64,000 bases of DNA from Elusimicrobiota bacterium (GCA_016207645.1 JACQPH010000045.1:6610-70609); one strand, 5' to 3'. Positions 27,078 to 39,975 are shown, counted from the stretch's first letter. A program made the numbers and translations. Notes: a model not told the origin generated them from the sequence alone.

Positions 27078-27718
27078 ATGCGCAGGTTGCGCCCGGCCCG
27101 GGCGGCCAGTTCCTTGTCGTGCGTGACCATGATCACGGTGATCCCTTCCGCGTTAAGCTCGACCAGCATCTGCATTATTTCCTTGCTCGAAGCGGAATCC
27201 AGGTTGCCGGTAGGCTCGTCGGCCAGGATAAGCCTGGGGGAATTGGCCAGCGCCCGGGCTATGGCCACGCGCTGGCGCTCGCCGCCGGAGAGCTCCAGCG
27301 GGATCTTCTTTTCCTTGCCGTGCAGGCCCACCCTGCGCAGCAGGGCATGGGCGCGCTCGTGCATCTCCGCGCGGCCCGCCCCGGCATACATCAGCGGGAG
27401 GGCGACGTTCTCCACGGAGGAAAGCCTGTTCAGCAGGTGGAAGGACTGGAAAACAAAACCTATCTCGTCGCGGCGCTTGGAGGAGCGCTCCAGGTCGGAA
27501 AGGGTGAACACATCGCGCCCGTTAAGGGAGTATTTCCCCCCGCTCGGCTCGTCCAGCAGGCCAATGATGTTGAGCAAAGTGGATTTACCGCAGCCGGAAG
27601 GCCCGGTGACGGCCACGAACTCCCCCGCCTTTATATCGAAAGAAACGCCGCGGAGGGCGGGCCAGCCGGCCTTTCCCCCCTCGTAAACCTTTGTCAGGTC
27701 AGCGCACTTTATGCTCAC
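27053..27718 (-). CDS. ABC transporter ATP-binding protein (MacB/LolD-like)
   Basis: Walker A GPSGCGKST, signature LSGGERQR, Walker B LILADEPTGNLD. Confidence 0.9.
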   Translation of the reverse strand: MSIKCADLTKVYEGGKAGWPALRGVSFDIKAGEFVAVTGPSGCGKSTLLNIIGLLDEPSGGKYSLNGRDVFTLSDLERSSKRRDEIGFVFQSFHLLNRLSSVENVALPLMYAGAGRAEMHERAHALLRRVGLHGKEKKIPLELSGGERQRVAIARALANSPRLILADEPTGNLDSASSKEIMQMLVELNAEGITVIMVTHDKELAARAGRNLRMCDGRLEQ

Positions 27719-28641
27719 TTCAGGGTCTCCGGCGCCGCGGTGAAAAGTTTATCCCCGGGTTTGACCGGGCCGGCCAGTTCGACCTCGGCTTCCGACCGCA
27801 GGCCGGGGAAGACCTCCAGCTTCTCGTACTCGTAGCCGGTCTTCTGGCGGTAGACGTAATGGTTCAGGCCTTCCTGGAACAGCGTCTCGATGGGGGCCTT
27901 CAGCACGTTCTTCTTCGCCTGCATATTGGCGGTGACCACGGCGCTCATGCCCACGCGCATCTTCTGGCTGGGCTTGTCGATGTTTATCACCACGCGGAAC
28001 ACCTTGGTGCCGGTACCCCCCCAGTTGTTGGACTTGCTTTCGGCCATCGGGGCCACCACGTCGATCTTCCCGGAGAATTTCTCGCCGGGGATGGACGTGA
28101 AGGTGATGAAGACCGGCATGCCCAGCCTGAGCTTGAAAATGTCTATTTCGCTCACCTGCAGGTTCACCGCCAGCGTGTTCATGTCCACCACGCGGGACAC
28201 GCAGGAACCCGAGCCGTCCACGCGCTTGCCTTCGCGGACCTCCTCCTCGCTGCCGCCCCGCCAGCCGGTGCTGATGCAGCGGGTGAGCAGCCCGGAGCGG
28301 GGCGACACTATAGGGACCGGCACGTACTGGGTGGAGTCGATGCGCTCTCCGCCCTTGAACATCATGATCTTCTCGTTCTTCTCCGCGTACTGCCCTTCCT
28401 TCTTCAGGATCTCCACGATGAAGCCCTTGCTGGGCGGAAAAATATCCACCGCGTCGCGCGAGACCAGCTCGCCGGATTCCTGCATATCCAGCTTGAGGTC
28501 GCCCCTGCTCGCTTCCCTGATGAAATCCGCAAGGTCCGCGCGGATGAGCATCTTTTTATAGCGCGTATAGCCGGCGAACCCCAGGGCGCTCACGAGGGCC
28601 AGTACCACCAGCCATACCGCGGGCTTTACTATTTTTTTCAT
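27715..28641 (-). CDS. Periplasmic adaptor (HlyD/MacA-type membrane fusion protein)
   Basis: N-terminal membrane anchor. Position between the TolC-like and ABC genes. Barrel-sandwich/beta-barrel-like sequence. Confidence 0.75.
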   Translation of the reverse strand: MKKIVKPAVWLVVLALVSALGFAGYTRYKKMLIRADLADFIREASRGDLKLDMQESGELVSRDAVDIFPPSKGFIVEILKKEGQYAEKNEKIMMFKGGERIDSTQYVPVPIVSPRSGLLTRCISTGWRGGSEEEVREGKRVDGSGSCVSRVVDMNTLAVNLQVSEIDIFKLRLGMPVFITFTSIPGEKFSGKIDVVAPMAESKSNNWGGTGTKVFRVVINIDKPSQKMRVGMSAVVTANMQAKKNVLKAPIETLFQEGLNHYVYRQKTGYEYEKLEVFPGLRSEAEVELAGPVKPGDKLFTAAPETLK

Positions 28642-28648
28642 AATGGTC

Positions 28649-29938
28649 TCACTCCCAGATCTTCTCCCCGAGCAGCACCCTGTAATTGGCCAGCGCCAGG
28701 TCCAGGTCGTTGGCGGCCGTGATCTGGCTGTTGCTGGAATCCAGGAGTTTCGTCTGCGAACTGTCCAGCTGGAGGAAAGAAGCGCTGCCCAGCGAGTATT
28801 CCGAAAGCAGGTTCTCGATGGTCTCCGACTGGGCCTTCACCTGGAATTCCAGCAGCTGGCGGGATTTCACCTGCAGCTCTATATCTTTTTGCGCGGACAG
28901 CACGCTCGTTTTAAGCGCGCGGACCGAATTCTCCAGGTCGAGCCCGGCGGAGGCGAGGGCGGCTTCCAGGTTCTTCACTTCCAGATAGTTCTGCGCGCCC
29001 AGGAAACCGAAGGGCAGGCTTAAAGACGCGCCCAGGCTGTAGGCGGGATCGCCGCCGAAACCGCCCGGGGCGCCGGAAAGCCCCAGCACCGTTTTCCGCC
29101 AGGCCGCGTCCACCTTGAGCCGCGGGTAATTGGACAGCACGCCGGCGCGGTTGGCGAGCTTCGTCCTTTCCAGCGCGAGCCGCTGCCGGCGCAGGGTGAA
29201 GTTGTTCTCCAGGGCTTTCGCCACGTCCTCTTTCGGCAGCGGCAGCCCGATAGCCGCCGACTGGGTGCTTATTTCCACCGTCTGCGGCGCGCCGGGCTCG
29301 GCGTTAATGAGCTCGTTGAAGGCCATCAGGGCCTTGCTCGCAGCGGTCTCCTCGCGCGCCAGCGAGAGCTCGCTGTCCAGCTTGTCGCCCTCGCTCTGCG
29401 TCACCTCTATATGGCTCCTGGTCCCGGATTGGAACTGCTCGTTGGTATCCTTGTACTGGCGCTCGCGGGAGGCCAGGTTCATCTTCGCGGTGCCGATGCG
29501 CCGCTGCGCCGAATACAGCGCGTAAAAGCGGTTAAGCGCCTTCACGGCTTCGTCCTGCTTCGCGATGAAGAGGTCCAGCCGCGCGGCCTCGTAGTCCAGC
29601 CTCGCGGTCTTTATCCGGCGCAGGGGGCTGGAGGCGGAGTCGTACAGGTTCCAGGAAGCCGACAGGCTGGAAGCTACTTCGTCCTTCCGGAAACGCGGGG
29701 AGGGGTCGCTCTCGTCGTAGAAAGTGTCGGACATGCTGAAAGTGAAAGCCGGCAGGGCGGCGTCGAGCAGCGCGGCCTTATAGGCGTTCTCGGCCTGTCC
29801 GAAGCTCTGCTCCGCCTTGCGCATGGTCGGGGAGGCGTCCAGGACGGTCCTGATATAGGACCCGGGGGTAAAGGGCCCGGCGGAGGCCGGAGCGGCCAGG
29901 ACCGCCAGGAAAAAGACCGCCGCGCGGAATTTGGTCAT
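28649..29938 (-). CDS. TolC-family outer-membrane efflux protein
   Basis: Signal peptide MTKFRAAVFFLAVLAAPASA, two OEP-like repeats. First gene of the efflux operon. Confidence 0.8.
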   Translation of the reverse strand: MTKFRAAVFFLAVLAAPASAGPFTPGSYIRTVLDASPTMRKAEQSFGQAENAYKAALLDAALPAFTFSMSDTFYDESDPSPRFRKDEVASSLSASWNLYDSASSPLRRIKTARLDYEAARLDLFIAKQDEAVKALNRFYALYSAQRRIGTAKMNLASRERQYKDTNEQFQSGTRSHIEVTQSEGDKLDSELSLAREETAASKALMAFNELINAEPGAPQTVEISTQSAAIGLPLPKEDVAKALENNFTLRRQRLALERTKLANRAGVLSNYPRLKVDAAWRKTVLGLSGAPGGFGGDPAYSLGASLSLPFGFLGAQNYLEVKNLEAALASAGLDLENSVRALKTSVLSAQKDIELQVKSRQLLEFQVKAQSETIENLLSEYSLGSASFLQLDSSQTKLLDSSNSQITAANDLDLALANYRVLLGEKIWE

Positions 29939-29988
29939 AGGAATAGCGGGTAGAATAAATGTACAGACCGTACTATATTTTACAAAAT

Positions 29989-30798
29989 TTACTTCCGCTT
30001 CTTTTCCGGCCGCGGGTCGGGGAGCTCATCTTCCTGAAGCGCAAGCCGGATAGTTGTCTGCAGCAGGACGCATTCCGGGCAGTCCAGGCCGGCCTTGAGA
30101 GTGTAGCCCAGATAGAGCTCGGCCTCTTTATAGCGCTTCAGCTCGTAGCAGACCAGGCCCATGTGCTTGGAGGTGGCGGCGAGGACCGGTCTTGGCGCGC
30201 GGACGCCGAGCCCGGCCTTGAGGGCTCCGTAAGCTTTGGGGAAATCGTCGAGCCCTTCGTAGGCGGAGGCCAGCGCGTTATAATACGGGTGCTTCTTCGC
30301 CCCCTCGAGGCCGCCGGCGGTCTCCAGCAGGCCCAGGGCCTCGCTGAATTTCTTCTCCTGGAGAAAGGCCCCGGCCAGGGAAAGATAGATCCCGGGGTTC
30401 TTGCTGCCGTTCTGGGCGGCGAGTTCCGCGAATTTGAGCGCTTCGGCGGCGGCGCCTTTCCTGGCGTGCACCGCGGCCAGCGACTCGTAGGCGGCGAGCA
30501 CCTGCTCGGGAGAGACCTGCCCGGCTACCTTGATGGCCAGCAATTCGTTCAGGTCGGAGACGACCCCGTCCCAGCTCTCGTCTTTCTCCAGGAGCTGCGC
30601 CCTCCTCAGCAGGTACGCTCCCTTGTAGCCGGCCGTGTGGTTCTCTATCAGGAAAGTGCAGGCTGCCGCCGCCTTCCGCCCCTCTCCTTCGAGGCAGTCT
30701 TTTTTCTTCGCGCTCAGGAAAAAACTGAAAGCTATGAAACCCGCGCCGGAAACGGCGAAGACCAGCGCTCCCCACTTGATCAGCTTTTTTATCGGCAT
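29989..30798 (-). CDS. Membrane-anchored TPR-repeat protein
   Basis: N-terminal TM (WGALVFAVSGAGFIAFSFFL) followed by repeated A/Y/L-rich TPR-like helices. Confidence 0.65.
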   Translation of the reverse strand: MPIKKLIKWGALVFAVSGAGFIAFSFFLSAKKKDCLEGEGRKAAAACTFLIENHTAGYKGAYLLRRAQLLEKDESWDGVVSDLNELLAIKVAGQVSPEQVLAAYESLAAVHARKGAAAEALKFAELAAQNGSKNPGIYLSLAGAFLQEKKFSEALGLLETAGGLEGAKKHPYYNALASAYEGLDDFPKAYGALKAGLGVRAPRPVLAATSKHMGLVCYELKRYKEAELYLGYTLKAGLDCPECVLLQTTIRLALQEDELPDPRPEKKRK

Positions 30799-30809
30799 AA
30801 GGCGCCCGT

Positions 30810-32552
30810 TTATTTCCCGGCCCGCGCGTAAAGGCAGTCGGCTTCGTCGTTGCGGCCTTCCCGGTCGAAGAGGGCGGCCAGCTTCTCCAGCCCCTCTTTG
30901 TCGGAGGAAAGCTCATACACAAAAATAGAATAGCCCGCGGTGAAAACCGGCTTGCGGGCCTTCAGCCAGGAGAAAGTCGCCTTGTCGGGATAATAGGTGC
31001 CCTGGAGGTTGGTGGCCGAGACCGCCAGCAGGACCTCCTTCATGCCGCAGACCTGCGCCCCGGCGGCCTTCAGCTCCACGTTGGAAACTATGCCCAGCGG
31101 GACGTAATTTATGCCGTGGCTTTCCGGCCTGGCCACGCCGAAATAGGAGAAGACCACCGGCGGGTTCCCCCGGCTTTTCAGATAAGCGGCCAGGCCCTTA
31201 ACGCCCTGTCCCCAGTCCAGGTTGGAATCCACGAAAAGCCTGTAGCCGCCGGCGGGCCCGCCCGCCGGCTCGTTGAAGTAAGCCAGGTAATGCGGCTGCG
31301 CCCGCAGCACGGAAGCGGCGTTAAGCGCCAGCAGCGCGGCGGCGAGCCAGGCCCCGCGCTTCAGCTCCGTCAATCGCGCCAGGGCCAGCCCGGCCAGCAC
31401 GGCGAGGAAAGGCATCACCGGCATGATATGCCTGTAGCCTATCTGCACCTTCGCCGTCAGCGAAGCCGCGAAAAAGACGGCGGGCGGGAGGATAAGCCAC
31501 AAATAGTCCTTCCGGAAATCCCTGAAGGCCAGCCAGGCCCCGGCCAGCGCGCCGAGCAGGACCAGCAGCGGGGTCTTGACCGCCAGCGCCGCCGGGAAAT
31601 ACCACCAGACGCCTTTAAGGGTATAGCGCCCCATCACGAAGGAGGAGCGGCCGGTGTCCAGCCTGTTCAGCGTGGCGGAAAGCCCGGCCCAGTACAGCCC
31701 GAGGTCGAACTTGTAGACCAGGGCCACCGTCAGCAGGCAGACGGCGCAGTAAAGCAGCAGGCAGGCCAGCAGTTTCGGGAACTTCAGCCGCGGCCAGAGC
31801 GCATTGTCGGCCAGCCAGAAGGCCGCTATCATCGGCGGGACTATGAACATGCTGAACTTGGAGACCAGGGCCAGGCCCGACACCGCTCCGGCGAGCGCCG
31901 CCCAGAGCCACAGTTTCCACATGCCCGCGGCTTCGGTTCTCTGCCCGCGCTTCCCCTCCCTGACGGCGGGGACCGTGGTAAAAAGCCAGCCCAGGGCGAA
32001 AGAGCCGAAATAGAAGACCGCCGCGGCCGCGTCGGTGCTGATAAGAGCGTCGTTGGAGATGAAGACCGGCATGGTGCAGAACACGGCGAGGCTGAGCGCC
32101 GCGGCGACCGGCGACCGGAGGCGGGAAGCGAACAGCCAGATGAACCAGGCGAACAGCGCGGTCCAGACCAGGAAGGTGAAAGCGCGGGCCGTGTTCAGCA
32201 GGCGCCCGTGCGGGACGGAGTTCTGGTACAGGAACAGGTCCCCGTAGTGGTAGGGCATGAAATTGGCGAAATAGGGATGCCCGGTGAAGGTCTGCGGTTT
32301 CAGCGCCAGCAGCGGCAGGGCCGAGAGCATCTCGGAGAAAGGCGGGTGGTCCATGATGTTCATCACGTAGCGCCCGGTGTAAAGATAGGAATAGCCGCTG
32401 GAAAGATGCACGGTCTCGTCGTAGGTGGCCGCCGAGGAGCGGATGAAGGAAAAACCGGCGAAAAGGTGGAAGACCAGCGCCGCCGCGGCGAGAACGACCG
32501 GGAACCGGTATTTTTCGCTCATAACTCCATTATATGATACAAAAATAGCCAT
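30810..32552 (-). CDS. GT-C fold glycosyltransferase (ArnT/PMT-like, polyprenyl-phosphate dependent)
   Basis: Multi-TM protein with a first-loop YDE motif (AATYDETVHLSSGYSY). Start uncertain (ATG 32552 or 32522). Confidence 0.75.
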   Translation of the reverse strand: MAIFVSYNGVMSEKYRFPVVLAAAALVFHLFAGFSFIRSSAATYDETVHLSSGYSYLYTGRYVMNIMDHPPFSEMLSALPLLALKPQTFTGHPYFANFMPYHYGDLFLYQNSVPHGRLLNTARAFTFLVWTALFAWFIWLFASRLRSPVAAALSLAVFCTMPVFISNDALISTDAAAAVFYFGSFALGWLFTTVPAVREGKRGQRTEAAGMWKLWLWAALAGAVSGLALVSKFSMFIVPPMIAAFWLADNALWPRLKFPKLLACLLLYCAVCLLTVALVYKFDLGLYWAGLSATLNRLDTGRSSFVMGRYTLKGVWWYFPAALAVKTPLLVLLGALAGAWLAFRDFRKDYLWLILPPAVFFAASLTAKVQIGYRHIMPVMPFLAVLAGLALARLTELKRGAWLAAALLALNAASVLRAQPHYLAYFNEPAGGPAGGYRLFVDSNLDWGQGVKGLAAYLKSRGNPPVVFSYFGVARPESHGINYVPLGIVSNVELKAAGAQVCGMKEVLLAVSATNLQGTYYPDKATFSWLKARKPVFTAGYSIFVYELSSDKEGLEKLAALFDREGRNDEADCLYARAGK

Positions 32553-32593
32553 GGCTCCCGGCCCGGCCAGGTATACGAATCCGCCGGCGGTTT

Positions 32594-32926
32594 TTAATGC
32601 AACCCCGGATGATGGTAAGCGGCAGAGGTGGAAGGGGGTATAAGACTATGCACATGCTGCCATGCATGGGACTCATGGGAAGCGTGCCAAAGGTCATAGG
32701 TCTGCTGCAGATTGGTCCAAAGATTGGGAGTGGTGCGAAATGCCCGGGAAAGGCGTAAAGCCATATCCGGCGTAATAGCGCAACGCTCGTTAACGATCCT
32801 GGAAAGAGTCTTACGGGAGATAGCCAGAGCTTTGGCGGCGGCGGAAACCGTAAGTTTCAGCGGTTCCAGATAGTGCCTTTTAAGGATCCCTCCGGGATGC
32901 GTGGGGGGCCGTGTTTTCTTGTTCAT
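32594..32926 (-). CDS. higA: HigA-type antitoxin (XRE HTH)
   Basis: HPGGILKRHYLEPLKLTVSAAAKALAISRKTLSRIVNERCAITPDMALRLSRAF. Confidence 0.85.
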   Translation of the reverse strand: MNKKTRPPTHPGGILKRHYLEPLKLTVSAAAKALAISRKTLSRIVNERCAITPDMALRLSRAFRTTPNLWTNLQQTYDLWHASHESHAWQHVHSLIPPSTSAAYHHPGLH

Positions 32927-32941
32927 TATAATTTATCCTCT

Positions 32942-33238
32942 CTAGTGATAATCCATGTAATCCACCACATAGGCGTTTCCGTTTTTAAATTGGAAGATAA
33001 TACGCCAGTTGCCGGAAACCCTGACCGCCCAGTATCCTTTAAGCTCCCCTTTGAGCGGATGAAGAACCGAACCGGGATAATCCATATCGTTAATGACCGC
33101 AGCGGCATCCAGACGGTCCAGTATATCCGCCAGTTTCTGCGCCTGGCCCGGCTGGATGCCTTTCTTAGAGCCGGTGTAAAAGAACTTTTCCAAGCCTTTG
33201 TGTTTAAAATTCTCGATCACGGTTATAGTGTAACCCAT
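32942..33238 (-). CDS. higB: HigB-type toxin (RelE/ParE superfamily plasmid-maintenance killer)
   Basis: IENFKHKGLEKFF..KGELKGYWAVRVSGNWRIIFQF. Alternative GTG start at 33220 would give the canonical MIENFKHKGLEKFF N-terminus. Confidence 0.85.
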   Translation of the reverse strand: MGYTITVIENFKHKGLEKFFYTGSKKGIQPGQAQKLADILDRLDAAAVINDMDYPGSVLHPLKGELKGYWAVRVSGNWRIIFQFKNGNAYVVDYMDYH

Positions 33239-33255
33239 AGAGTTACACTTGTCAA
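33220..33255 (-). promoter_or_regulatory. Candidate higBA promoter TTGACA-17-TACACT placed 6 nt before GTG 33220 (leaderless geometry)
   Basis: The minus strand reads TTGACA AGTGTAACTCTATGGGT TACACT ATAACC GTG. The palindrome CGTTAT-G-ATAACG at 33281..33293 lies just upstream. Confidence 0.35.
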
Positions 33256-33299
33256 GAGTTGTTTTTAAGGCAACGTCGGGCGTTATGATAACGGGACGC

Positions 33300-33357
33300 C
33301 AGTTCGGTCCGGGTTGTTAGTAATAAGTCAGATAATCAACTACGTCCCGTATCTCCC
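33300..33357. repeat. Copy A of ~58 bp imperfect direct repeat
   Basis: CAGTTCGGTCCGGGTTGTTAGTAATAAGTCAGATAATCAACTACGTCCCGTATCTCCC aligns with 34793..34850 at roughly four-fifths identity, with two 1-nt indels (hand alignment). Confidence 0.7.
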
Positions 33358-33364
33358 ACCATTC

Positions 33365-34705
33365 TTATTGCCCATTTGGAAATTTAGAGGGACTGGCGCC
33401 CCCCTCACCCTGCTTTCTTTGATTTAGTCGCGATTTGGCCGATTCCCTCGTTCCTTGGTCGGGGTGACTCTTTACAACCTCCTCTAGGACAGGGACAGCT
33501 TCCGCATTGCCCGATAGAGCGACCAAATCCACTGCAAATAGAGACCCTGTGCGGCGTTTTTCTAGAATATCCACGAAAACCGAAAACCGTGAATTAAACA
33601 ACGAACCCACCTTGCTGTCCGCTGAAGCAGCTCTTCGCGGGGAATGAAGTCCGTGCAACCCCTGCAAAACAAAATACTCTACCCGTTCATTCAGCGGCTT
33701 ATCCTCCAACTTTTTCAGCAATGGCTCCACGGCCCGCAAATCATCCGATTCCCCCAAGCTTGCAGCGGCGGACATTTGCACATTTTCATCAGGATCGTTC
33801 AACATTTCAATAAGCCGCGGAACGCTTGATAACCCTTCGCCATAACGAAACCATAAAACAAGCCTGCGGGCAGCCATTTCCCTAACCCTGGAAGAAGCAT
33901 CCGTTAAAAGACCGGTTATTACCGGTAAAGCGTTATCTCTGCGCCGATCGCCTAGATCAAGGGCGGCGCGCGACCTGATTCTATCGTTTGGATGCTTTGA
34001 GAGCGAAATTAAAATATTTGTAGCCTCCGTGGAAAACTGGTCGGATAAAACCAAGCTGGCGGTTTTGATAACCTCCTCATTTTTACTATTCGCGGCAGCA
34101 ATTGCCAGACTCACGAATTCTTTATCGTGTGTATGTCGTATTACAGAGAGCGCGGTATGCTGCGCCTCCGGGACATCGCTTTTGAGTAATTTAACAACTT
34201 CACCATGATACACCCCATGAATAGCACCGCTGGACAATCCCCATATGTACTGGCGGGCTGTCTGCATTAACAGGGTATTTGTAGATGTGGCCAACCCGAA
34301 CATCGCACGATCACGTTCGAAATCGGTCTTCATGATGGAAACATCAAGAAGCTTCTTCACCATAGTGATGTTCCGCTCTTCGTATTTCGGAGATAGCGGC
34401 AAGACATATGTGCGCCGGCCGTTAAAAATTACGACATATGTCGAATCCGGCAGCAGCGGCGCTGGAGGATGGATATCAGATCCGTTGGCCAATGGCCATT
34501 CAAGCGCTTTTGGGGATACTTGCCCCTTAAGGACAGTCAGAATTTCAACCGGGAACGGAGCGGTTCTCTGTGACGCCGTTTTCCCCACAAAAATAGCATC
34601 ACTTGACTTAACCCACTCGTACAAATTTGGAGGCAGGGATTTTGCCGAGGCACCGGAAATAACGGCAAACACTAAAACCCAAAAACCTCTGTGCCCAAAT
34701 TTCAT
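33365..34705 (-). CDS. Secreted HEAT-repeat (PBS-lyase HEAT-like) protein, low GC
   Basis: Signal peptide MKFGHRGFWVLVFAVISGASA. Repeated ..D..VR..AA..LG.. HEAT-like units (RIRSRAALDLG, SRVREMAARRL, ENVQMSAAASLG). GGAGG 9 nt upstream. Confidence 0.7.
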   Translation of the reverse strand: MKFGHRGFWVLVFAVISGASAKSLPPNLYEWVKSSDAIFVGKTASQRTAPFPVEILTVLKGQVSPKALEWPLANGSDIHPPAPLLPDSTYVVIFNGRRTYVLPLSPKYEERNITMVKKLLDVSIMKTDFERDRAMFGLATSTNTLLMQTARQYIWGLSSGAIHGVYHGEVVKLLKSDVPEAQHTALSVIRHTHDKEFVSLAIAAANSKNEEVIKTASLVLSDQFSTEATNILISLSKHPNDRIRSRAALDLGDRRRDNALPVITGLLTDASSRVREMAARRLVLWFRYGEGLSSVPRLIEMLNDPDENVQMSAAASLGESDDLRAVEPLLKKLEDKPLNERVEYFVLQGLHGLHSPRRAASADSKVGSLFNSRFSVFVDILEKRRTGSLFAVDLVALSGNAEAVPVLEEVVKSHPDQGTRESAKSRLNQRKQGEGGASPSKFPNGQ

Positions 34706-34792
34706 GAGAACACGCCTCCGACTTATCCCTTCTGTTTTTTAAGCTTTGGACGGGGATAATGGAACGAAGTTGGCTTTGTGATTATTTACCCA

Positions 34793-34850
34793 CAGTTCAG
34801 TCCGGGTCGTTATAATAAGTCAAATAGCCAACTACACCCAATTATCTCCC
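34793..34850. repeat. Copy B of ~58 bp imperfect direct repeat
   Basis: CAGTTCAGTCCGGGTCGTTATAATAAGTCAAATAGCCAACTACACCCAATTATCTCCC. Lies between the XDH-L1 stop and the HEAT gene start. Confidence 0.7.
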
Positions 34851-34881
34851 GTTGTTTTTGGCTTACATCACACAGATATGA

Positions 34882-37191
34882 TCAACCCCGCTTCTTCAGC
34901 GCCGCCAGCACCTTGTCGGGGGTGAAGGGGGCGTCGAAGAGCCGGATGCCGCAGGCATTGTAGATGGCGTTGGCCACCGCCGGCAGCGGGCCGTTGATAC
35001 CTATCTCGGAGACCGACTTGGCGCCGAAGGGGCCGGCGGGCTCCCAGGTGGGGATCAGGAAGGTGCGCAGCGGCGGCGTGTCGGCCGCCGAGAAGATCTT
35101 GTAGCGGCGGAAAGAGGCGTTCAGCGGGGTGCCGTTGGTGGAGAATTCCATTTCCTCGGACAGCGTGTGGCTGATGCCGTTCAGCACCGCCCCGTCGTTC
35201 TGGCCCTCCGCCAGCTGCGGGTTGATCGCGGTGCCGCAGTCCACGCAGCTCACGTAGTCCAGGATCTTCACCACCCCGGTCTCCATGTCCACTTCCACCT
35301 CGGCGAAATTCGCCTGGAAGGGCGGCGGGGAGGTATGGGCGAAATGGGAGGCGGAGGCCGTTATCTGGTGCTGGTTATAATAGTACAGGGAAGTATTGGC
35401 CACTTCGGAGAGGGAGCAGGAAGCTCCGTCCTTGGCCACGACCTTCCCCCCTTCCAGCCGCAGCTCCTCTTTTTTCTGGTCCAGGATCTTCGCCCCGACT
35501 TCCAGTATCATCTCGCGCACTTTCTCGGCGGTCTTCTTCACGGCTCCGCCGGAGATGAAGGTGGTGGAGGAGGCGTAGGCGCCCACGTCGAAAGGCGTGA
35601 TATCGGTGTCTGAAGAAGTAACAATTATGTCGTCGGTTTTTATTCCCAGAACCTCGGCCGCTATCTGGGCGAGGATGGTGTCGGAGCCGGTGCCCAGGTC
35701 GGCCGCGCCGACCAGCAGGTTGAAGGAGCCGTCCTCGTTCATCTTCATCGTGGCCGAGGCCATGTCCACTTCGGGGATGCCGGAGCCCTGCATCATGCAG
35801 GCCGCGCCCACGCCGCGGCGGATAGGGCCCGACTGGGCGGCGTACTTCGCGCGCTTCTCGGCCCATTTGATCTCTTCCGTGCCTTTCCGGATGGCCTCGA
35901 ACAGGCCGGTGGAGGTAATGACCTGCTCCACGCCCTCGCGGCCCTCGCCCATGGCCTTGAACACCGGCGAACCCTCTCCAAGTTTGATGTAATTCATCTT
36001 CCTGAACTCTACGGGGTCCATGCCGATCTTGGCGGCCATCATGTCCATCAGGCATTCCCAGGCGAAGAAGCCCTGCGTCGCGCCATAGCCGCGGTAAGCC
36101 CCTGCCACCGGCATATTCGTGTATACGCTGCGGCCGATGAAGCGGATATTGTTCTTCACGCGGTACATCGGGATGGTATGCGAGCCGGAGCACATCATCA
36201 CGGTGAGAGCGTGCGAGCCGTAAGCGCCCGTGTTCAGGGTTATCTCCATCTCGGCGTCGGTGATGGTGCCGTCCTTTTTCACGCCGGCCTTCAGGCGGCA
36301 GGTGGCGGGATGGCGGGTGCGGGAGGAGACGAAGGTTTCTTTCCGGGTATATTCCAGCTTCACCGGGCGCTTGGTCTTGAGCGCGAGCGCGGCGACAATA
36401 TCCTCAAGGACTTCCTGCTTGGAGCCGAAGCCGCCGCCGATGCGCGGCTTCACCACGCGGATCTTCTTCACCGGGATCTTCAGGGCCTGGGCCACTATGC
36501 GGCGCACGTGGAAAGGGACCTGCGTGGAGGTACGCAGCACCAGCCTGCCGGAATTGTCGAAATGCGCTATCGTGACATGCGGCTCGATAGCGCAGTGCTG
36601 GAGGTAGGGGATCTTCCAACTGTGCTCGAAGACATGGTCCGCTTCCTTGAACCACTCTCCGTTCTTCACTTCGAAATCGAACCTGGCCGCGATATTGTGC
36701 TTCGCGTCCGGGATATTCTTTGAATCTTCCTCGTCGTGGATGACCGGGGCGCCGTCCTTCATGGCCTCGAAGGTGTCGAAGACCGCCGGCAGGACCTCGT
36801 AATCCACCTTTATCTTCAAAAGGGCCTCGTGCGCGGCTTCAGGGGTCTCCGCGGCCACGGCGGCCACGCGGTCGCCCACGAAGCGGACCTTATTGTCCAG
36901 CGTATAGGTGTCGTAAGGGGAAGGCTCCGGGTAGCCCTGGCCGGCGGTGGTATGCGGTACGCGGGGCAGGTCCTTGCAGGTGAGCACCGCTTTCACGCCG
37001 GGGACTTTAAGCGCGGCCGAGACGTCTATCTTTTTTATCCTGGCGTGGGCGTGCGGGCTCCAGAGTATCTTCCCGCACAGCAGGCCCTTGAACTCCACGT
37101 CGTCGGTGAAGGCCGGCTCGCCGCAGGCCAGTCCCAGCGCGTCCATTTTGATCACCGGCTTATTTACGACATTCAGATCTTTAGCATCCAT
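34882..37191 (-). CDS. Xanthine dehydrogenase-family molybdopterin-binding large subunit (set 1)
   Basis: ORF 34882..37218 trimmed to ATG 37191 (MDAKDLNVVNKPV), because the track start is a TTG inside the tandem repeat. GGGFGSKQE, conserved Glu in AKSVSEIG. Confidence 0.9.
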   Translation of the reverse strand: MDAKDLNVVNKPVIKMDALGLACGEPAFTDDVEFKGLLCGKILWSPHAHARIKKIDVSAALKVPGVKAVLTCKDLPRVPHTTAGQGYPEPSPYDTYTLDNKVRFVGDRVAAVAAETPEAAHEALLKIKVDYEVLPAVFDTFEAMKDGAPVIHDEEDSKNIPDAKHNIAARFDFEVKNGEWFKEADHVFEHSWKIPYLQHCAIEPHVTIAHFDNSGRLVLRTSTQVPFHVRRIVAQALKIPVKKIRVVKPRIGGGFGSKQEVLEDIVAALALKTKRPVKLEYTRKETFVSSRTRHPATCRLKAGVKKDGTITDAEMEITLNTGAYGSHALTVMMCSGSHTIPMYRVKNNIRFIGRSVYTNMPVAGAYRGYGATQGFFAWECLMDMMAAKIGMDPVEFRKMNYIKLGEGSPVFKAMGEGREGVEQVITSTGLFEAIRKGTEEIKWAEKRAKYAAQSGPIRRGVGAACMMQGSGIPEVDMASATMKMNEDGSFNLLVGAADLGTGSDTILAQIAAEVLGIKTDDIIVTSSDTDITPFDVGAYASSTTFISGGAVKKTAEKVREMILEVGAKILDQKKEELRLEGGKVVAKDGASCSLSEVANTSLYYYNQHQITASASHFAHTSPPPFQANFAEVEVDMETGVVKILDYVSCVDCGTAINPQLAEGQNDGAVLNGISHTLSEEMEFSTNGTPLNASFRRYKIFSAADTPPLRTFLIPTWEPAGPFGAKSVSEIGINGPLPAVANAIYNACGIRLFDAPFTPDKVLAALKKRG

Positions 37192-37202
37192 ATTCAGTCC
37201 CC

Positions 37203-37273
37203 AATCTCCAATCTCCAATCTCCAATCTCCAATCTCTAATCTCTAAATCTCTAACCTCTAATCTCTAACCTCT
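37203..37273. repeat. Heptamer tandem array, ~10 units AATCTCC/AATCTCT/AACCTCT (minus strand: TGGAGAT/TAGAGAT/TAGAGGT)
   Basis: Direct reading: 4x AATCTCC, 2x AATCTCT, AAATCTCT, AACCTCT, AATCTCT, AACCTCT. It fills the gap between the 2Fe-2S subunit stop (37265) and the large-subunit ATG (37191). Confidence 0.95.
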
Positions 37274-37768
37274 ACTCTTCAGCCTTTTAGCCGCGTTCTT
37301 CACGGCCTCTACCTGCTTCACATAGCCGGTGCAGCGGCAGAGGTTGCCGTCGAGGGCTTTGCGGATCTCGGCCTCGGTGGGGTCCGGTATCCTGTCCAGC
37401 AAATACTTGGAGGAAAGTATCATCCCCGGTATGCAGAAGCCGCACTGCACGGCGCCGGCCTCTACGAAAGCCTGCTGCAGCGGGTGCGGGTTATGCACGG
37501 AACCGAGCCCTTCGATAGTGGTGATCTCGCCGCCGTGGGCGGCTACGGCCGGGACCAGGCAGCCCAGCACCGGCTTCCCGTTCAGGAGCACCGCGCAGGA
37601 GCCGCAGTCGCCGGTATCGCAGCCCTTCTTCGCGCCTTTCCAGCCGTGGCGGCGCAGGGCGTCGAGCAGGGACTCCGCGTTCCTGACCGAGAGTTCCTTC
37701 TTTTCGCCGTTCACGGCCGCGGATATCCCGAAAAAACCTTTATCGGCGGCCAGCAGGCTGTTTTTCAT
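37265..37768 (-). CDS. XDH-family [2Fe-2S] small subunit (set 1)
   Basis: CDTGDCGSCAV plant-type cluster motif and QCGFCIPG..CRCTGY second cluster motif. Confidence 0.9.
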   Translation of the reverse strand: MKNSLLAADKGFFGISAAVNGEKKELSVRNAESLLDALRRHGWKGAKKGCDTGDCGSCAVLLNGKPVLGCLVPAVAAHGGEITTIEGLGSVHNPHPLQQAFVEAGAVQCGFCIPGMILSSKYLLDRIPDPTEAEIRKALDGNLCRCTGYVKQVEAVKNAAKRLKSRG

Positions 37769-38580
37769 ATTTTACCTTCCATGAAGCGCTTGAGCAGGTT
37801 AGAGGCGGCCGCGCAGCGGTACTCGCCGGCCCTGGCGGCTTCCAGTTCCGCGGCGAAGGCGGCGGCCGCGGCGGCCCCTTCTCCGGAGAGCATGGCCTTT
37901 TCCGCCTCGGGCGCCCGGAACGGCCTGGGCGAAAGCGCGCCCACGGCCGCGCGCGCCTGGGTCACGGACTTCCCCTTCTTCTCGGCGGAGAAGAAGAGGG
38001 TTATATAGGATTCCCAGCTGGACGCCGTCCTGGCCAGCTTAATGAACTCGCATTTCCAGTTCCTGGTCTTCGCGGGGATAATTGCTTCGGTTATCAGGCT
38101 GTCCAGCCCCGGCCTCAGGCCCAGGCCCGAGGTGTAGAGGTCCTGGAAATCTATAAGTTTTGCGCCTTTTCCGGTCTGCAGCCGCACCTTGGCGTCCAGG
38201 GCCAGCAGGACTACGGGGAAGATATTGAAGGAATGCGGGCGGGCTATGTTCCCGCCTATCGTGGCCATGTTGCGGATGAGCTGGGTAGAGCAGGCCGCCG
38301 CGGCCGCGGCTATGCTCCCTCCGGCCCAGGTACGGCAGAGCCTGGAGCGGTCTATCTCGTCGAAGGTGGCTCCCGCGCCGATGACCAGGTTCCCGCCCTG
38401 GAGCCTGATGTCTTTTATCGGCAGGTTCTTCAGGTCCAGGTAGGTTTCCACGGAATCGGGCAGGGTCTTGGACACCAGCGTGCCGCCGGCGAGAGCCATG
38501 GCTTTATATCTTTTATTCAGGAGCAGGGAGAGCGCTTCTTTCACTTTGGACGGACAGGCGTAGTATTTGATGTTTTTCAC
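37765..38580 (-). CDS. XDH-family FAD-binding medium subunit (set 1)
   Basis: ORF 37765..38655 trimmed to GTG 38580 (GGAGGA upstream, avoids overlap with the previous gene). LAGGTLV, IRNMATIGGNI. Confidence 0.8.
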   Translation of the reverse strand: MKNIKYYACPSKVKEALSLLLNKRYKAMALAGGTLVSKTLPDSVETYLDLKNLPIKDIRLQGGNLVIGAGATFDEIDRSRLCRTWAGGSIAAAAAACSTQLIRNMATIGGNIARPHSFNIFPVVLLALDAKVRLQTGKGAKLIDFQDLYTSGLGLRPGLDSLITEAIIPAKTRNWKCEFIKLARTASSWESYITLFFSAEKKGKSVTQARAAVGALSPRPFRAPEAEKAMLSGEGAAAAAAFAAELEAARAGEYRCAAASNLLKRFMEGKI

Positions 38581-38612
38581 GGTTCCTCCGGATAGATCCC
38601 GCGCGGGCCTCT

Positions 38613-39452
38613 TCAGGCCAGCGACTTTAAAGCGCGTTCGAGCAGGACCCCGCACATGTCCAGGCGGTAGGCCGCTTCGCTGCGGGTGTCGGTGATCGGT
38701 GAAGCTTCGGTCCTGACCAGGGCCGAGGCCTCCGCTATAGTTTCAGCCGAAAGCTTTTTATCGGCCAGGAAGGCGGAAGTGCGGGCCGCGTACAGCGGCA
38801 CCGGGGCCACGGAGCCGAGCGCCACGCGGACTCTCTTTACCGCGCCGCCGGAAAGCTCGGCCGTGACGGCTACCGCGGCTTTGGAGATACCGAAATAAGC
38901 GCGCGGGCCGAGCTTGAGGTAGGCGCCGGCATGGCGGCGCTTCCGTATCTCGAAGCCGAGTATCAGCTCGTCCTTTTTCAGCGCGGTCAGCTTCGGACCA
39001 AGGAAAAAGTCCACGAGGGGCAGGCGGCGCTTTTTCCCCTTCAGGGCGAGCAGGACAGAAGCCCCTTCGGCCACCAGGGAACAGGCGCCGTCGGCGCAGG
39101 GGCTGGCGTTGGCGGCGTTACCGCCCAGCGTGGCCATATTGCGCAGGCTGGGGCTGGCGAAATGCGGTATGGCCGCAACAAGGGCCGGGCACCAGCGCGC
39201 CGCAGCTTTGGAGCTTTCTATCTCGGAAATTTTCACCCCGGAGCCGATGAACAGGGAGCCTGCCGCCTCTTTTATGGAGCCCAGCTCGGGGAGGTCGCCT
39301 ATATCTATCCAGCACTCGGAGTGCTCAACTCCGGCAACTCCGGCGGTGACCAGGTCCGTGCCGCCGGCGAGATAGCGGCGGCGGGCGGGCAGGCCCGGCA
39401 GCATTTTCCAGAGCTCTTTGAGGTTAGAGGGCTTTACTATGATCTCGGGCAT
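38613..39452 (-). CDS. XDH-family FAD-binding medium subunit (set 2)
   Basis: YLAGGTDLV, LRNMATLGGNAANASP. 279 aa. Confidence 0.85.
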   Translation of the reverse strand: MPEIIVKPSNLKELWKMLPGLPARRRYLAGGTDLVTAGVAGVEHSECWIDIGDLPELGSIKEAAGSLFIGSGVKISEIESSKAAARWCPALVAAIPHFASPSLRNMATLGGNAANASPCADGACSLVAEGASVLLALKGKKRRLPLVDFFLGPKLTALKKDELILGFEIRKRRHAGAYLKLGPRAYFGISKAAVAVTAELSGGAVKRVRVALGSVAPVPLYAARTSAFLADKKLSAETIAEASALVRTEASPITDTRSEAAYRLDMCGVLLERALKSLA

Positions 39453-39459
39453 AAAGAAA

Positions 39460-39487
39460 GGGTAGAGGGTTTAGGGTAGAGGGGAGA
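39460..39487. repeat. Second heptamer array GGGTAGA GGGTTTA GGGTAGA GGGGAGA (plus strand), related to the 37.2 kb array but inverted
   Basis: Direct reading of the 37-nt gap between set-2 2Fe-2S and FAD subunits. A further GAGGTTAGAGGG lies at 39420..39431 inside the FAD gene. Confidence 0.8.
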
Positions 39488-39489
39488 GA

Positions 39490-39975
39490 CTACTTTTTTA
39501 TTTTCCGGGCTTTCCCGACCGCGGACAGCACCTTCTCGTAGCCTGTGCAGCGGCAGAGGTTGCCGGTCAGCCCCAGCTTGATCTCTTCGAGCGTGGCCTT
39601 CGGCCTGCGGCGCAGCAGCGCTTCCGAAGCCACTATCAGGCCGGGAGTACAGAAGCCGCACTGCACGGCCCCTTCGGCCATGAAGGTCTTCTGCAGCGGG
39701 TGCAGCCCGCCATCGCGGCCCTTTATCCCTTCTATGGTCACGAGTTCTTTGCCGTGGACCTGCACGGCCATCATCAGGCAGGAATTCACGGCCCTGCCGT
39801 CGAGCAGGACCAGGCAGGCGCCGCATTCGCCCTCGCCGCAGCCTTCCTTGGTGCCTTTCAGTCCGAGGTCCTCGCGGATAAATTCCAGCAAAGAGCGGGA
39901 AGAAGGGAGCTCCCGCTCCATGCTCACGCCGTTCACCCTGCATTTCAGGACGAACGGGCTTGTTGACTGTTTCAT
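39490..39975 (-). CDS. XDH-family [2Fe-2S] small subunit (set 2)
   Basis: CGEGECGACLV and QCGFCTPG..CRCTGY. Confidence 0.9.
   Translation of the reverse strand: MKQSTSPFVLKCRVNGVSMERELPSSRSLLEFIREDLGLKGTKEGCGEGECGACLVLLDGRAVNSCLMMAVQVHGKELVTIEGIKGRDGGLHPLQKTFMAEGAVQCGFCTPGLIVASEALLRRRPKATLEEIKLGLTGNLCRCTGYEKVLSAVGKARKIKK

What the first reader, a model, noticed from the sequence alone, without database searches (positions are those of the whole stretch)
33300..34850. About 58 bp imperfect direct repeats bracket the HEAT-repeat gene like cassette boundaries
Copy A (33300..33357) ends 8 nt from the HEAT gene stop. Copy B (34793..34850) lies 88 nt upstream of its start and 32 nt after the XDH-L1 stop. 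By hand alignment they share roughly four-fifths of positions, with two single-base indels. Conserved blocks are CAGTTC.GTCCGGGT.GTTA, TAATAAGTCA, CAACTAC and ATCTCCC. So a 1.49 kb unit of one repeat plus one gene is delimited by the repeats. That pattern is expected for a gene cassette inserted by site-specific recombination (attC/att-like), for a duplicated regulatory leader (each copy precedes a minus-strand gene, HEAT and higB), or for a small structured RNA present in two copies.
Basis: seen in the sequence. Interest (0 to 1): 0.55.

Follow-up and report, generated by a model that had tools for sequence, protein, structure and literature searches.

The report
Hairpin repeats at seams of foreign islet
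Two diverged copies of a short hairpin-forming DNA repeat really do flank a horizontally acquired HEAT-repeat gene in an Elusimicrobia genome, sitting at the joints of a small patchwork of foreign genes, but they fail the tests for integron attC sites, a shared regulatory leader or a known RNA, and no further copy was found in the collections searched.

Summary
The repeat is real. Copy A (33300-33357) and copy B (34793-34850) share 48 of 59 aligned columns, with a Smith-Waterman score of 60 against 15.6±2.3 for shuffles. An independent assembly reproduces the arrangement.

B is a 103-bp imperfect palindrome (34750-34852). A (33284-33359) lacks B's outer left arm but folds into its own hairpin.

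Both lie in a 2.3-kb low-GC islet (32584-34881; GC3 0.49-0.60, against 0.72-0.91 for the other 52 ORFs taken as genes). The islet sits in a gene-order hot spot between an XDH operon and a glycosyltransferase-like gene.

The neighbouring higBA unit (32584-33283) is a separate mobile module, 92% identical in unrelated contigs. Its edge coincides with A's left edge, so the repeats mark module seams.

They are not canonical attC sites: no RYYYAAC/GTTRRRY pair was found, and none of the window's 55 ORFs taken as genes matched a recombinase family. They are not the higBA leader, not dif-like, not sigma-70 promoters or intrinsic terminators, and match no Rfam family.

Pattern scans of GTDB genomes, JGI metagenomes and IMG/VR, and BLAST against plasmids and phages, found no further copy.

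Best reading (confidence 0.4): a foreign palindromic repeat of the REP/MITE kind, acting as or left over from recombination joints. This is ordinary biology of modest interest.

The parts
33300..33357 (+).
   Evidence: 81% identical to copy B. SW score 60 against shuffles of 15.6±2.3.
33284..33359 (.). Copy A, full extent. It fills the gap between the HEAT stop codon and the edge of the higBA module. It forms its own hairpin, with stems 33287-33304 and 33338-33353.
   Evidence: nhmmer alignment 33279-33359. RNA fold of the sense strand gives -26.8 kcal/mol, z -2.6. The higBA homology to L016-L023 stops at 33283.
34793..34850 (+).
34750..34852 (.). Copy B, full element: a 103-bp imperfect palindrome. 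The left arm (34750-34791) is an inverted partial copy of the right arm (34810-34852).
   Evidence: Inverted repeat I2. Arms are about three-quarters identical, roughly 32 of 43 positions by my count on the arm alignment. Fold energy is -35.8 kcal/mol (RNA, z -3.8) and -17.6 kcal/mol (DNA, z -3.2). It is the longest local inverted repeat reported in the window, and its arms lie between ORFs. The three arms are the only matches to the arm HMM and to the consensus pattern.
33365..34705 (-). HEAT-repeat gene (446 aa): the foreign single-gene cargo between the two copies
   Evidence: Pfam HEAT_2 at 5.8e-22. GC3 is 0.49, against 0.72-0.91 in host ORFs. Homologues in L003 and L004 are also low-GC genes with high-GC flanks. 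An N-terminal signal peptide is my own reading of the sequence and was not tested.
32584..33283 (-). Self-contained higBA toxin-antitoxin module. It includes the promoter (-35 at 33250-33255, -10 at 33227-33232), the operator palindrome GTGTAAC-N7-GTTACAC (33228-33248), higB and higA (32594-32926).
   Evidence: Pfam HigB-like_toxin at 3.2e-25 and HTH_3. TIGR02607 HigA at 1.6e-32. The promoter matches 10 of 12 consensus positions. The module is 92% identical over 700 bp to L016-L023, 85% to L024 and 81% to L026, each with different flanks.
32584..34881 (.). The whole low-GC islet, made of the higBA module, copy A, HEAT, copy B and a 29-nt AT-rich spacer
   Evidence: GC is 0.44-0.52 inside and 0.56-0.69 in the flanks; the islet overall is 0.49 against 0.61 for the window. 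Homology to relatives resumes at 32546. In relatives the XDH-L homologue is followed by a GC-rich terminator that is absent here.
34882..37218 (-). Host XDH large subunit. Its stop codon borders the islet.
   Evidence: Pfam MoCoBD_1 and MoCoBD_2. NCBIfam XdhA. GC3 is 0.84.
30810..32522 (-). Host 570-aa membrane glycosyltransferase-like gene bordering the islet on the other side. The real start is probably the ATG at 32522.
   Evidence: Homologues are 570-571 aa long, and some carry PF02366 or PF13231. Upstream homology begins at 32546.

Best explanation
A and B are two already-diverged members of a short hairpin-forming (imperfectly palindromic) repeat. The repeat belongs to the foreign DNA, not to the host.

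B is a full 103-bp palindrome. A is a variant that lacks the outer left arm exactly where the higBA module begins, and it has its own local stem.

The copies sit at the joints of a 2.3-kb patchwork: host XDH-L | B | HEAT | A | higBA | host.

Inferred mechanism: the HEAT gene travelled, or was slotted in, between copies of this repeat. This happened either by recombination between similar copies or because long hairpins are favoured break-and-join points. The higBA module was later joined at, and truncated, copy A.

A secondary effect is also inferred. On the sense (minus) strand each copy lies just after a stop codon, so it would add a stable 3' stem-loop to the XDH-L and HEAT transcripts.

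Shown here: the repeat, the palindrome and hairpins, the foreign origin, and the coincidence with module edges. Inferred: any recombination role and any RNA role.
For: - The repeat is highly significant.
- B is an imperfect palindrome and the longest local inverted repeat reported in 64 kb. A forms a different but stable hairpin.
- All three arm copies lie inside the islet and nowhere else in the window or in about 170 kb of related loci.
- The islet is foreign: GC3 is 0.49-0.60 against 0.72-0.91 for the other 52 ORFs. The elements themselves are 43-47% GC.
- A's left limit equals the higBA module limit found by comparison with L016-L023 (33283/33284). L026 puts the same 5' edge near 33269-33275.
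- The higBA module occurs with flanks unlike the window's in L016-L021, L022/L023 (upstream side), L024 and L026, so it is independently mobile.
- HEAT homologues are low-GC single genes in high-GC flanks in L003 and L004, so HEAT moves on its own too.
- The site is a gene-order hot spot in relatives L008-L010.
- The host terminator that follows the XDH-L homologue in relatives is missing here. An AT-rich spacer plus B stands in its place.
- The copies differ by 19%, by indels and by arm architecture, while the cargo genes are still unameliorated. They were therefore distinct copies before arrival, not a duplication made on insertion here (inference).
Against: - Only two and a half copies are known. 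Pattern scans of GTDB species genomes, JGI metagenomes and IMG/VR, and BLAST against plasmids and phages, gave only chance hits. A repeat family is therefore asserted from one locus.
- Those collection scans need exact matches to the specified bases, and the rest of this MAG could not be searched.
- No target-site duplication is visible around B (read from the sequence).
- No remnant of A's missing arm lies beyond the higBA module.
- The closest HEAT homologues (60-76% aa) have no such flanks.
- No recombinase is nearby.
- The hairpins have no U-tract, so a terminator role is unproven.
Confidence: 0.4

Rival explanations
1. Non-canonical cassette recombination sites. A and B would be attC-like hairpin sites used by a recombinase encoded elsewhere. 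B-HEAT-A would be an integrated single-gene cassette, with one site per cassette placed directly after the ORF.
For: - Direct repeats bracket one compact gene, with 7 nt between the stop codon and A and 44 nt between B and the ATG.
- Both copies are imperfect palindromes within the 55-141 nt size range of attC sites (size range from PMC7370490).
- The neighbour is a HigA/TIGR02607 toxin-antitoxin pair, which is among the commonest integron cassette cargo (PMC7370490).
- The copies are diverged, as adjacent attC sites are.
Against: - No RYYYAAC/GTTRRRY pair with at most one mismatch each and at least 6 of 7 complementary positions exists in the islet, on either strand.
- The stem bases are ACGGGGATAAT/ATTATCTCCCGT (B) and GATAACGGGACG/CGTCCCGTATC (A), without AAC/GTT.
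- No intI or any other recombinase family matched among the 55 window ORFs.
- The higBA module has no site after higA.
- A lacks one arm of B.
- No further copies were found in any collection.
Confidence: 0.12
2. The main function is at the RNA level. The copies would be 3' stem-loops that end or stabilise the XDH-L and HEAT transcripts, or 5' leaders or attenuators of HEAT and higBA. The sequence similarity would reflect shared function.
For: - Sense-strand hairpins of -26.8 and -35.8 kcal/mol (z -2.6 and -3.8) start 5-29 nt after stop codons.
- The canonical terminator present after the XDH-L homologue in relatives is missing here.
- The two copies keep a long hairpin even though they build it from different left arms.
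Against: - No U-tract and no terminator call.
- No Rfam match, even at E up to 10.
- The consensus fold of the two copies is weak, at -5.8 kcal/mol with only 2 compensatory pairs.
- B's local fold is no better than shuffles (z +0.6).
- higBA works as a unit without the repeat elsewhere, and HEAT homologues lack it.
- No sigma-70 promoter lies in either copy.
Confidence: 0.15
3. An old local duplication. One intergenic segment was duplicated when HEAT was inserted, in this genome or in an earlier host, and the two halves then drifted apart. The palindromes would have no function.
For: - Direct orientation, with the two copies immediately flanking a single ORF.
- No other copies anywhere.
Against: - The 19% divergence, the indels and the extra inverted arm in B contrast with cargo genes that are still unameliorated (GC3 0.49-0.60). 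A duplication made on insertion into this host is therefore unlikely.
- Hairpin stability in both copies exceeds shuffles, which drift should erode.
Confidence: 0.15
4. A duplicated promoter or operator leader bound by one regulator (for example HigA) that co-regulates HEAT and higBA.
For: Each copy lies about 80-90 nt upstream of the next minus-strand start codon.
Against: - higBA has its own TTGACA-17-TACACT promoter and a perfect palindromic operator. Both lie downstream of copy A and inside the conserved module.
- No GTGTAAC or GTTACAC half-site (one mismatch allowed) occurs in either copy.
- No sigma-70-like promoter lies in the copies.
- The repeat is absent upstream of all higBA and HEAT homologues examined.
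Confidence: 0.04

Closest known systems
Extragenic palindromic repeats (REP/BIME, ERIC, Neisseria Correia/NEMIS-type elements); comparison from general knowledge
   Same: Imperfect palindromes of 35-150 bp. They lie in intergenic DNA just after stop codons, form stable hairpins, are often found at recombination or insertion hot spots, and can act as mRNA 3' stem-loops.
   Different: Those families have tens to hundreds of copies per genome. Here only 2.5 copies are known, all inside one 2.3-kb foreign islet. No sequence similarity to anything in the collections searched.
MITEs, and MITE-flanked composite units (for example integron mobilisation units); from general knowledge
   Same: B is about 100 bp long with roughly 41-nt imperfect terminal inverted repeats and no coding capacity. 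Two copies flank a cargo gene.
   Different: No target-site duplication, no cognate transposase, and no other copies. A lacks the outer arm that would be needed for mobilisation.
Integron attC sites and CALIN arrays (features as given in PMC7370490)
   Same: Imperfect palindromes within the attC size range, diverged between neighbours, with compact gene-plus-site units. A HigA-type toxin-antitoxin pair next door is typical cargo.
   Different: No R''/R' core motifs and no integrase. There is no site after higBA, and one copy is truncated.
pdif (XerC/D) modules of Acinetobacter plasmids, and dif-type sites; from general knowledge
   Same: Small gene modules, often toxin-antitoxin pairs, bounded by short recombination sites and lacking their own recombinase.
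   Different: The best dif-like match in the islet is 19-20 of 28, no better than the window background of 21 of 28. pdif sites flank modules in inverted orientation, not direct.
Minimal mobile elements / variable hot spots between conserved genes (Neisseria concept); from general knowledge
   Same: Different cargo occupies the interval next to the conserved glycosyltransferase-like gene in related genomes (L008, L009 and L010 against the window).
   Different: In those systems exchange goes through homologous recombination in the conserved flanks. Here the gene order of the XDH side is itself rearranged, so no simple allelic replacement is visible.

Membership tests
Integron attC site | Imperfect palindrome of 55-141 nt that folds into a hairpin | tested here: met
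   B spans 103 nt and A's hairpin about 67 nt (33287-33353). Both are more stable than shuffles. Size range taken from PMC7370490.
Integron attC site | Complementary R''/R' core motifs RYYYAAC ... GTTRRRY at the base of the stem | tested here: not met
It gave 0 hits.
Integron attC site | An integron integrase nearby, or an array of attC sites each following a cassette | tested here: not met
   No recombinase family matched among the 55 window ORFs taken as genes. The higBA module has no copy downstream of it.
Integron attC site | L''/L' boxes with extrahelical bases recognised by IntI | not testable with these tools
   Bulges exist in both hairpins, but no attC covariance model or IntI assay was available.
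MITE | Terminal inverted repeats on a short non-coding element | tested here: met
   B's arms (34750-34791 and 34810-34852) are about three-quarters identical by my count on the alignment. No coherent ORF runs through the element.
MITE | Target-site duplication at both ends | tested here: not met
   The flanks are ...CTTTGG|ACGGGG and CTCCCGT|TGTTTT, with no direct duplication adjacent to the ends (sequence).
MITE / REP-type repeat family | Many dispersed copies in the genome | tested here: inconclusive
   Only the islet copies occur in the 64-kb window. None were found in GTDB representatives, JGI metagenomes or IMG/VR by pattern scan. The rest of this MAG is not in any searchable collection.
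REP-type extragenic palindrome | Intergenic position directly 3' of genes, with a stable stem-loop on the transcript strand | tested here: met
   A's full extent starts 5 nt after the HEAT stop codon and B 29 nt after the XDH-L stop, on the minus strand. Fold energies are -26.8 and -35.8 kcal/mol.
Intrinsic (Rho-independent) terminator | GC-rich short stem followed by a U-tract | tested here: not met
   The scan reports no terminator-like site in either copy. Relatives have a canonical terminator after the XDH-L homologue.
higBA promoter/operator leader | Conserved together with the higBA module and carrying its operator motif | tested here: not met
   Module homology stops at 33283 in L016-L023 and near 33269 in L026, with unrelated DNA upstream. 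No operator half-sites occur in the repeats.
Described structured RNA family (Rfam 15) | Match to a covariance model | tested here: not met
   The only hit at gathering threshold is a tRNA at 1477-1548. At E up to 10, nothing overlaps the core repeats: the closest hit is a plant microRNA model (MIR856, E=7) starting at 34847, the last bases of B.
dif / pdif Xer site | A 28-bp XerC arm, 6-nt spacer and XerD arm matching the dif consensus | tested here: not met
   The best match in the islet is 19-20 of 28 against a window background maximum of 21 of 28. The consensus was recalled from memory.

The most novel reading that the evidence does not exclude
A and B are sites of an undescribed hairpin-site cassette system, attC-like in architecture but without the AAC/GTT core, served by a recombinase encoded elsewhere. 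The system would insert promoterless single-gene cassettes such as HEAT next to toxin-antitoxin modules in Elusimicrobia or in their gene donors.
Probability: 0.08. Interest if true: 0.6.

Novelty: new member of a known kind. Interest (0 to 1): 0.22.

Why it matters
If the reading is right, this locus is a small, clean example of how foreign single genes and toxin-antitoxin modules are stitched into a chromosomal hot spot at hairpin-forming repeats without any resident recombinase. That is useful for annotating such islets in uncultured phyla, but it is not conceptually new.

It would matter more only if the repeats proved to be sites of an unknown cassette-recombination system. Present evidence makes that unlikely.

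Tried and rejected
- **More copies.** Five DNA patterns of 17-22 specified bases, one of which matches all three arms, were scanned against GTDB genomes, JGI metagenomes and IMG/VR. The hits were all chance matches that do not extend beyond the pattern: a sigma-70 promoter in an Oscillospiraceae MAG, a site inside a long ORF in L025, and six viral sites.
- **BLAST of the B region** against plasmids and phages gave nothing. The higBA module DNA against plasmids and the HEAT protein against plasmids and phages also gave no match.
- **Empty site.** Relatives with the 570-aa gene (82-86% aa identity; L008-L010) have a different gene order (rhodanese and other genes, with the XDH operon inverted). 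No empty-site comparison was possible.
- **HEAT homologues** (L002-L005) have no repeat. The apparent resemblance of the L005 3' flank (GGGAGATA..GGACG) and the L003/L004 upstream matches are at chance level or lie in coding DNA.
- **Missing arm of A.** No remnant was found beyond the higBA module.
- **Other identities.** The attC grammar scan, the dif scan and the operator half-site scan were all negative. Six-frame translation shows no pseudogene origin. An exact look-up of HEAT and HigB found only the same sample.
- **The 19-nt repeat** at both ends of the higBA module (32590-32608 and 33261-33279) was judged chance-level, AT-rich similarity. It is weaker in L016 and absent in L026.

Full report
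**Observation.** The repeat is real.
- Copy A (33300-33357) and copy B (34793-34850) align with 48 identities in 59 columns and two single-base indels.
- A local alignment of the two intergenic regions scores 60. Two thousand dinucleotide shuffles give 15.6±2.3, with a maximum of 30.
- BLAST and nhmmer find no other full copy in the 64-kb window.
- The stated distances to the HEAT stop, the HEAT start and the XDH-L stop are correct.
- The Logan assembly of run SRR12113385 (L001) is 100% identical to window 27272-35743. Because the copies also differ by 19%, an assembly artefact is excluded.

**Anatomy.**
- Weaker similarity extends left to about 33279/34772.
- Next to B lies an inverted partial copy at 34750-34791. 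B is therefore a 103-bp imperfect palindrome (34750-34852) whose arms are about three-quarters identical.
- A consensus pattern fitted to the three arms matches exactly these three places, against none in 100 shuffles of the window. An arm HMM finds no others in the window or in the related loci.
- B is the longest local inverted repeat reported in the window, and its arms lie between ORFs.
- A lacks B's outer left arm. It folds instead into its own hairpin (33287-33304 with 33338-33353), using the conserved CAGTT and AACTAC blocks plus a GGGACG/CGTCCC stem that B does not have.
- Sense-strand RNA energies are -26.8 kcal/mol (z -2.6) for A and -35.8 kcal/mol (z -3.8) for B. DNA folds behave similarly for B.
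- The two copies do not share one fold. The consensus structure is weak, at -5.8 kcal/mol with 2 compensatory pairs.

**Context.**
- The window is from an Elusimicrobia MAG.
- A low-GC islet spans 32584-34881.
- Its three genes have GC3 of 0.56 (HigA), 0.60 (HigB) and 0.49 (HEAT). The other 52 ORFs taken as genes in the window have 0.72-0.91.
- The flanking genes are the XDH large subunit (34882-37218) and a 570-aa glycosyltransferase-like membrane protein.
- Of the 55 window ORFs taken as genes, none matched a recombinase or transposase family. Most are housekeeping: purine synthesis, oxidative-stress genes, MacAB-type efflux, two XDH-like clusters and histidine degradation.
- In relatives carrying the 570-aa gene at 82-86% identity (L008-L010), the interval upstream of that gene holds different genes each time, and the XDH operon is inverted. 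This is a rearrangement hot spot, and no empty-site comparison is possible.
- In L008 and L009 the XDH-L homologue is followed by a canonical GC-rich terminator. In the window, 29 AT-rich bases and B stand in its place.

**Module boundaries.**
- The higBA unit (32584-33283) is 92% identical over 700 bp to eight Logan contigs from other runs (L016-L023), 85% to L024 and 81% to L026. In each case the flanks are unlike the window's.
- Homology stops at 33283/33284 upstream and at 32584 downstream, 10 nt after the higA stop.
- The module carries its own TTGACA-17-TACACT promoter and a perfect GTGTAAC-N7-GTTACAC operator.
- A's left limit therefore coincides with the edge of an independently mobile module. 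A fills exactly the gap between that edge and the HEAT stop codon.
- HEAT homologues (60-76% aa; L002-L005) share only the ORF at the nucleotide level. In L003 and L004 they are again low-GC genes in high-GC flanks. None has the repeat.

**Tests of the proposed interpretations.**
- *attC.* The size and the palindromic nature fit (PMC7370490). However, no RYYYAAC...GTTRRRY pair exists in the islet, nor in the higBA contigs L016, L022, L023 and L024. No integrase is present, higBA has no downstream site, and A is truncated.
- *Regulatory leader.* This is refuted for higBA, because the module is complete without the repeat elsewhere and the repeats contain no operator half-site. It is unsupported for HEAT.
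- *Structured RNA.* No Rfam match overlaps the core repeats even at E up to 10; the nearest is a plant microRNA model at E=7 touching the last bases of B. There is no promoter or terminator and no common fold.
- *Others.* The best dif-like match is at background level. No target-site duplication is visible. There is no coding remnant.

**Search for further copies.** The pattern scans of 185,579 GTDB species genomes, JGI metagenomes and IMG/VR, and BLAST against plasmids and phages, gave only chance hits. These scans need exact matches to 17-22 specified bases. The MAG itself is not in the genome collection, since the first pattern did not even recover the window. The rest of this genome therefore remains unsearched.

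**Explanation.** I read A and B as two already-diverged members of a foreign, hairpin-forming repeat of the REP/MITE kind, sitting at the seams of a patchwork islet.
- The 19% divergence, the indels and the different arm architecture contrast with cargo genes whose codon composition is still far from the host's. The copies were therefore distinct before arrival and were not created by a duplication on insertion here. This is an inference.
- Their positions suggest that HEAT moved or was inserted between copies of the repeat. This could be recombination between similar copies, or hairpins acting as break-and-join points.
- The higBA module was probably joined later at copy A and removed its outer arm.
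- As a by-product, each copy gives the upstream transcript a strong 3' stem-loop where the host terminator has been lost.
- Confidence is 0.4.
- Rivals: a non-canonical cassette site system (0.12), a primarily RNA-level function (0.15), an old functionless local duplication (0.15), and a shared regulatory leader (0.04).

**Novelty and verdict.** This is a previously unseen sequence of a familiar kind, namely short palindromic repeats at islet joints. The 'cassette boundary' intuition is right in the loose sense that the repeats mark module seams, but the attC, leader and sRNA readings are not supported. Interest is modest. The decisive data are the rest of the MAG and the reads of SRR12113385.

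Noticed in passing
window 32584-33283; L016-L024, L026: The higBA pair is a discrete ~700-bp promoter-to-stop module. It is 92% identical in Logan contigs from other runs (SRR254905xx), 85% in an ENA contig and 81% in a JGI contig. Its flanks there are unlike the window's: a divergent RelE/HTH pair, AbiEii, or a degraded XRE gene.
   Followed up: yes
window 33218-33238: The higB start is probably the GTG at 33220, not the ATG at 33238. The Pfam HigB model begins at residue 9 of the long ORF, and the TTGACA-17-TACACT promoter ends 6 nt before the GTG. Neither start has a Shine-Dalgarno sequence, which suggests a leaderless mRNA.
   Followed up: partly
window 32522-32552: The mechanical 580-aa ORF of the glycosyltransferase-like gene probably starts at the ATG at 32522, giving 570 aa. 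Homologues are 570-571 aa long, and upstream homology to relatives begins only at 32546.
   Followed up: partly
L016 1-121 and 1787-1908: The contig carrying two divergent toxin-antitoxin modules (RelE/HTH and HigBA) ends in ~122-nt inverted repeats that are 83-95% complementary. Each repeat lies 3' of a module and contains a long A-run/GCGAAC...GTTCGC/T-run hairpin. This could be a real repeat family or an assembly-graph effect.
   Followed up: partly
L026 285-322 and 1146-1183: In this JGI contig the higBA module is bracketed by 38-nt direct repeats (87% identical). They look like 3' ends of a degraded XRE/HTH (antitoxin-like) gene; that reading comes from my hand translation of the sequence. 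This is another case of direct repeats flanking a module, with a different origin.
   Followed up: partly
L023 47-62 and 112-127; L022 upstream region: Perfect 16-nt direct repeats CCAGTGTCGCAAAAGT lie 65 nt apart, with a GTGTCGC...GCGACAC hairpin, just upstream of the higBA module. They are unrelated in sequence to copies A and B.
   Followed up: no
L003 985-2298; L004 387-1691: HEAT-repeat homologues (60-72% aa) are low-GC genes (0.51 and 0.47) inside high-GC flanks (0.63 and 0.60). This gene therefore seems to move as a single-gene unit in several genomes. In L002 the homologue is preceded by a tRNA-like T-arm motif at the cut contig end, but ARAGORN found no tRNA.
   Followed up: partly
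window 34853-34881 versus L008 and L009: The XDH large-subunit gene has lost the canonical GC-rich terminator that follows its homologue in relatives. Its last ~6 codons also differ (…LKKRG* against …EKKK*), so the islet border abuts the stop codon.
   Followed up: partly
window 34882-42263: Two XDH-like clusters lie in tandem on the minus strand, with gene order MoCoBD-Fer2-FAD and then FAD-Fer2-MoCoBD. The operon orientation next to the 570-aa gene is inverted relative to L008 and L009, and the rhodanese gene that precedes the 570-aa gene in all three relatives is absent.
   Followed up: partly
window 32590-32608 and 33261-33279: A 19-nt imperfect direct repeat (16 of 19; GTTTTTAAKGCAACNNCGG) sits at both ends of the higBA module. 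It was judged chance-level, AT-rich similarity because it is weaker or absent in the homologous modules.
   Followed up: yes
window 33283-33293: A perfect small palindrome GTTAT-G-ATAAC lies exactly at the junction between the higBA module and copy A. Its significance is unknown.
   Followed up: no
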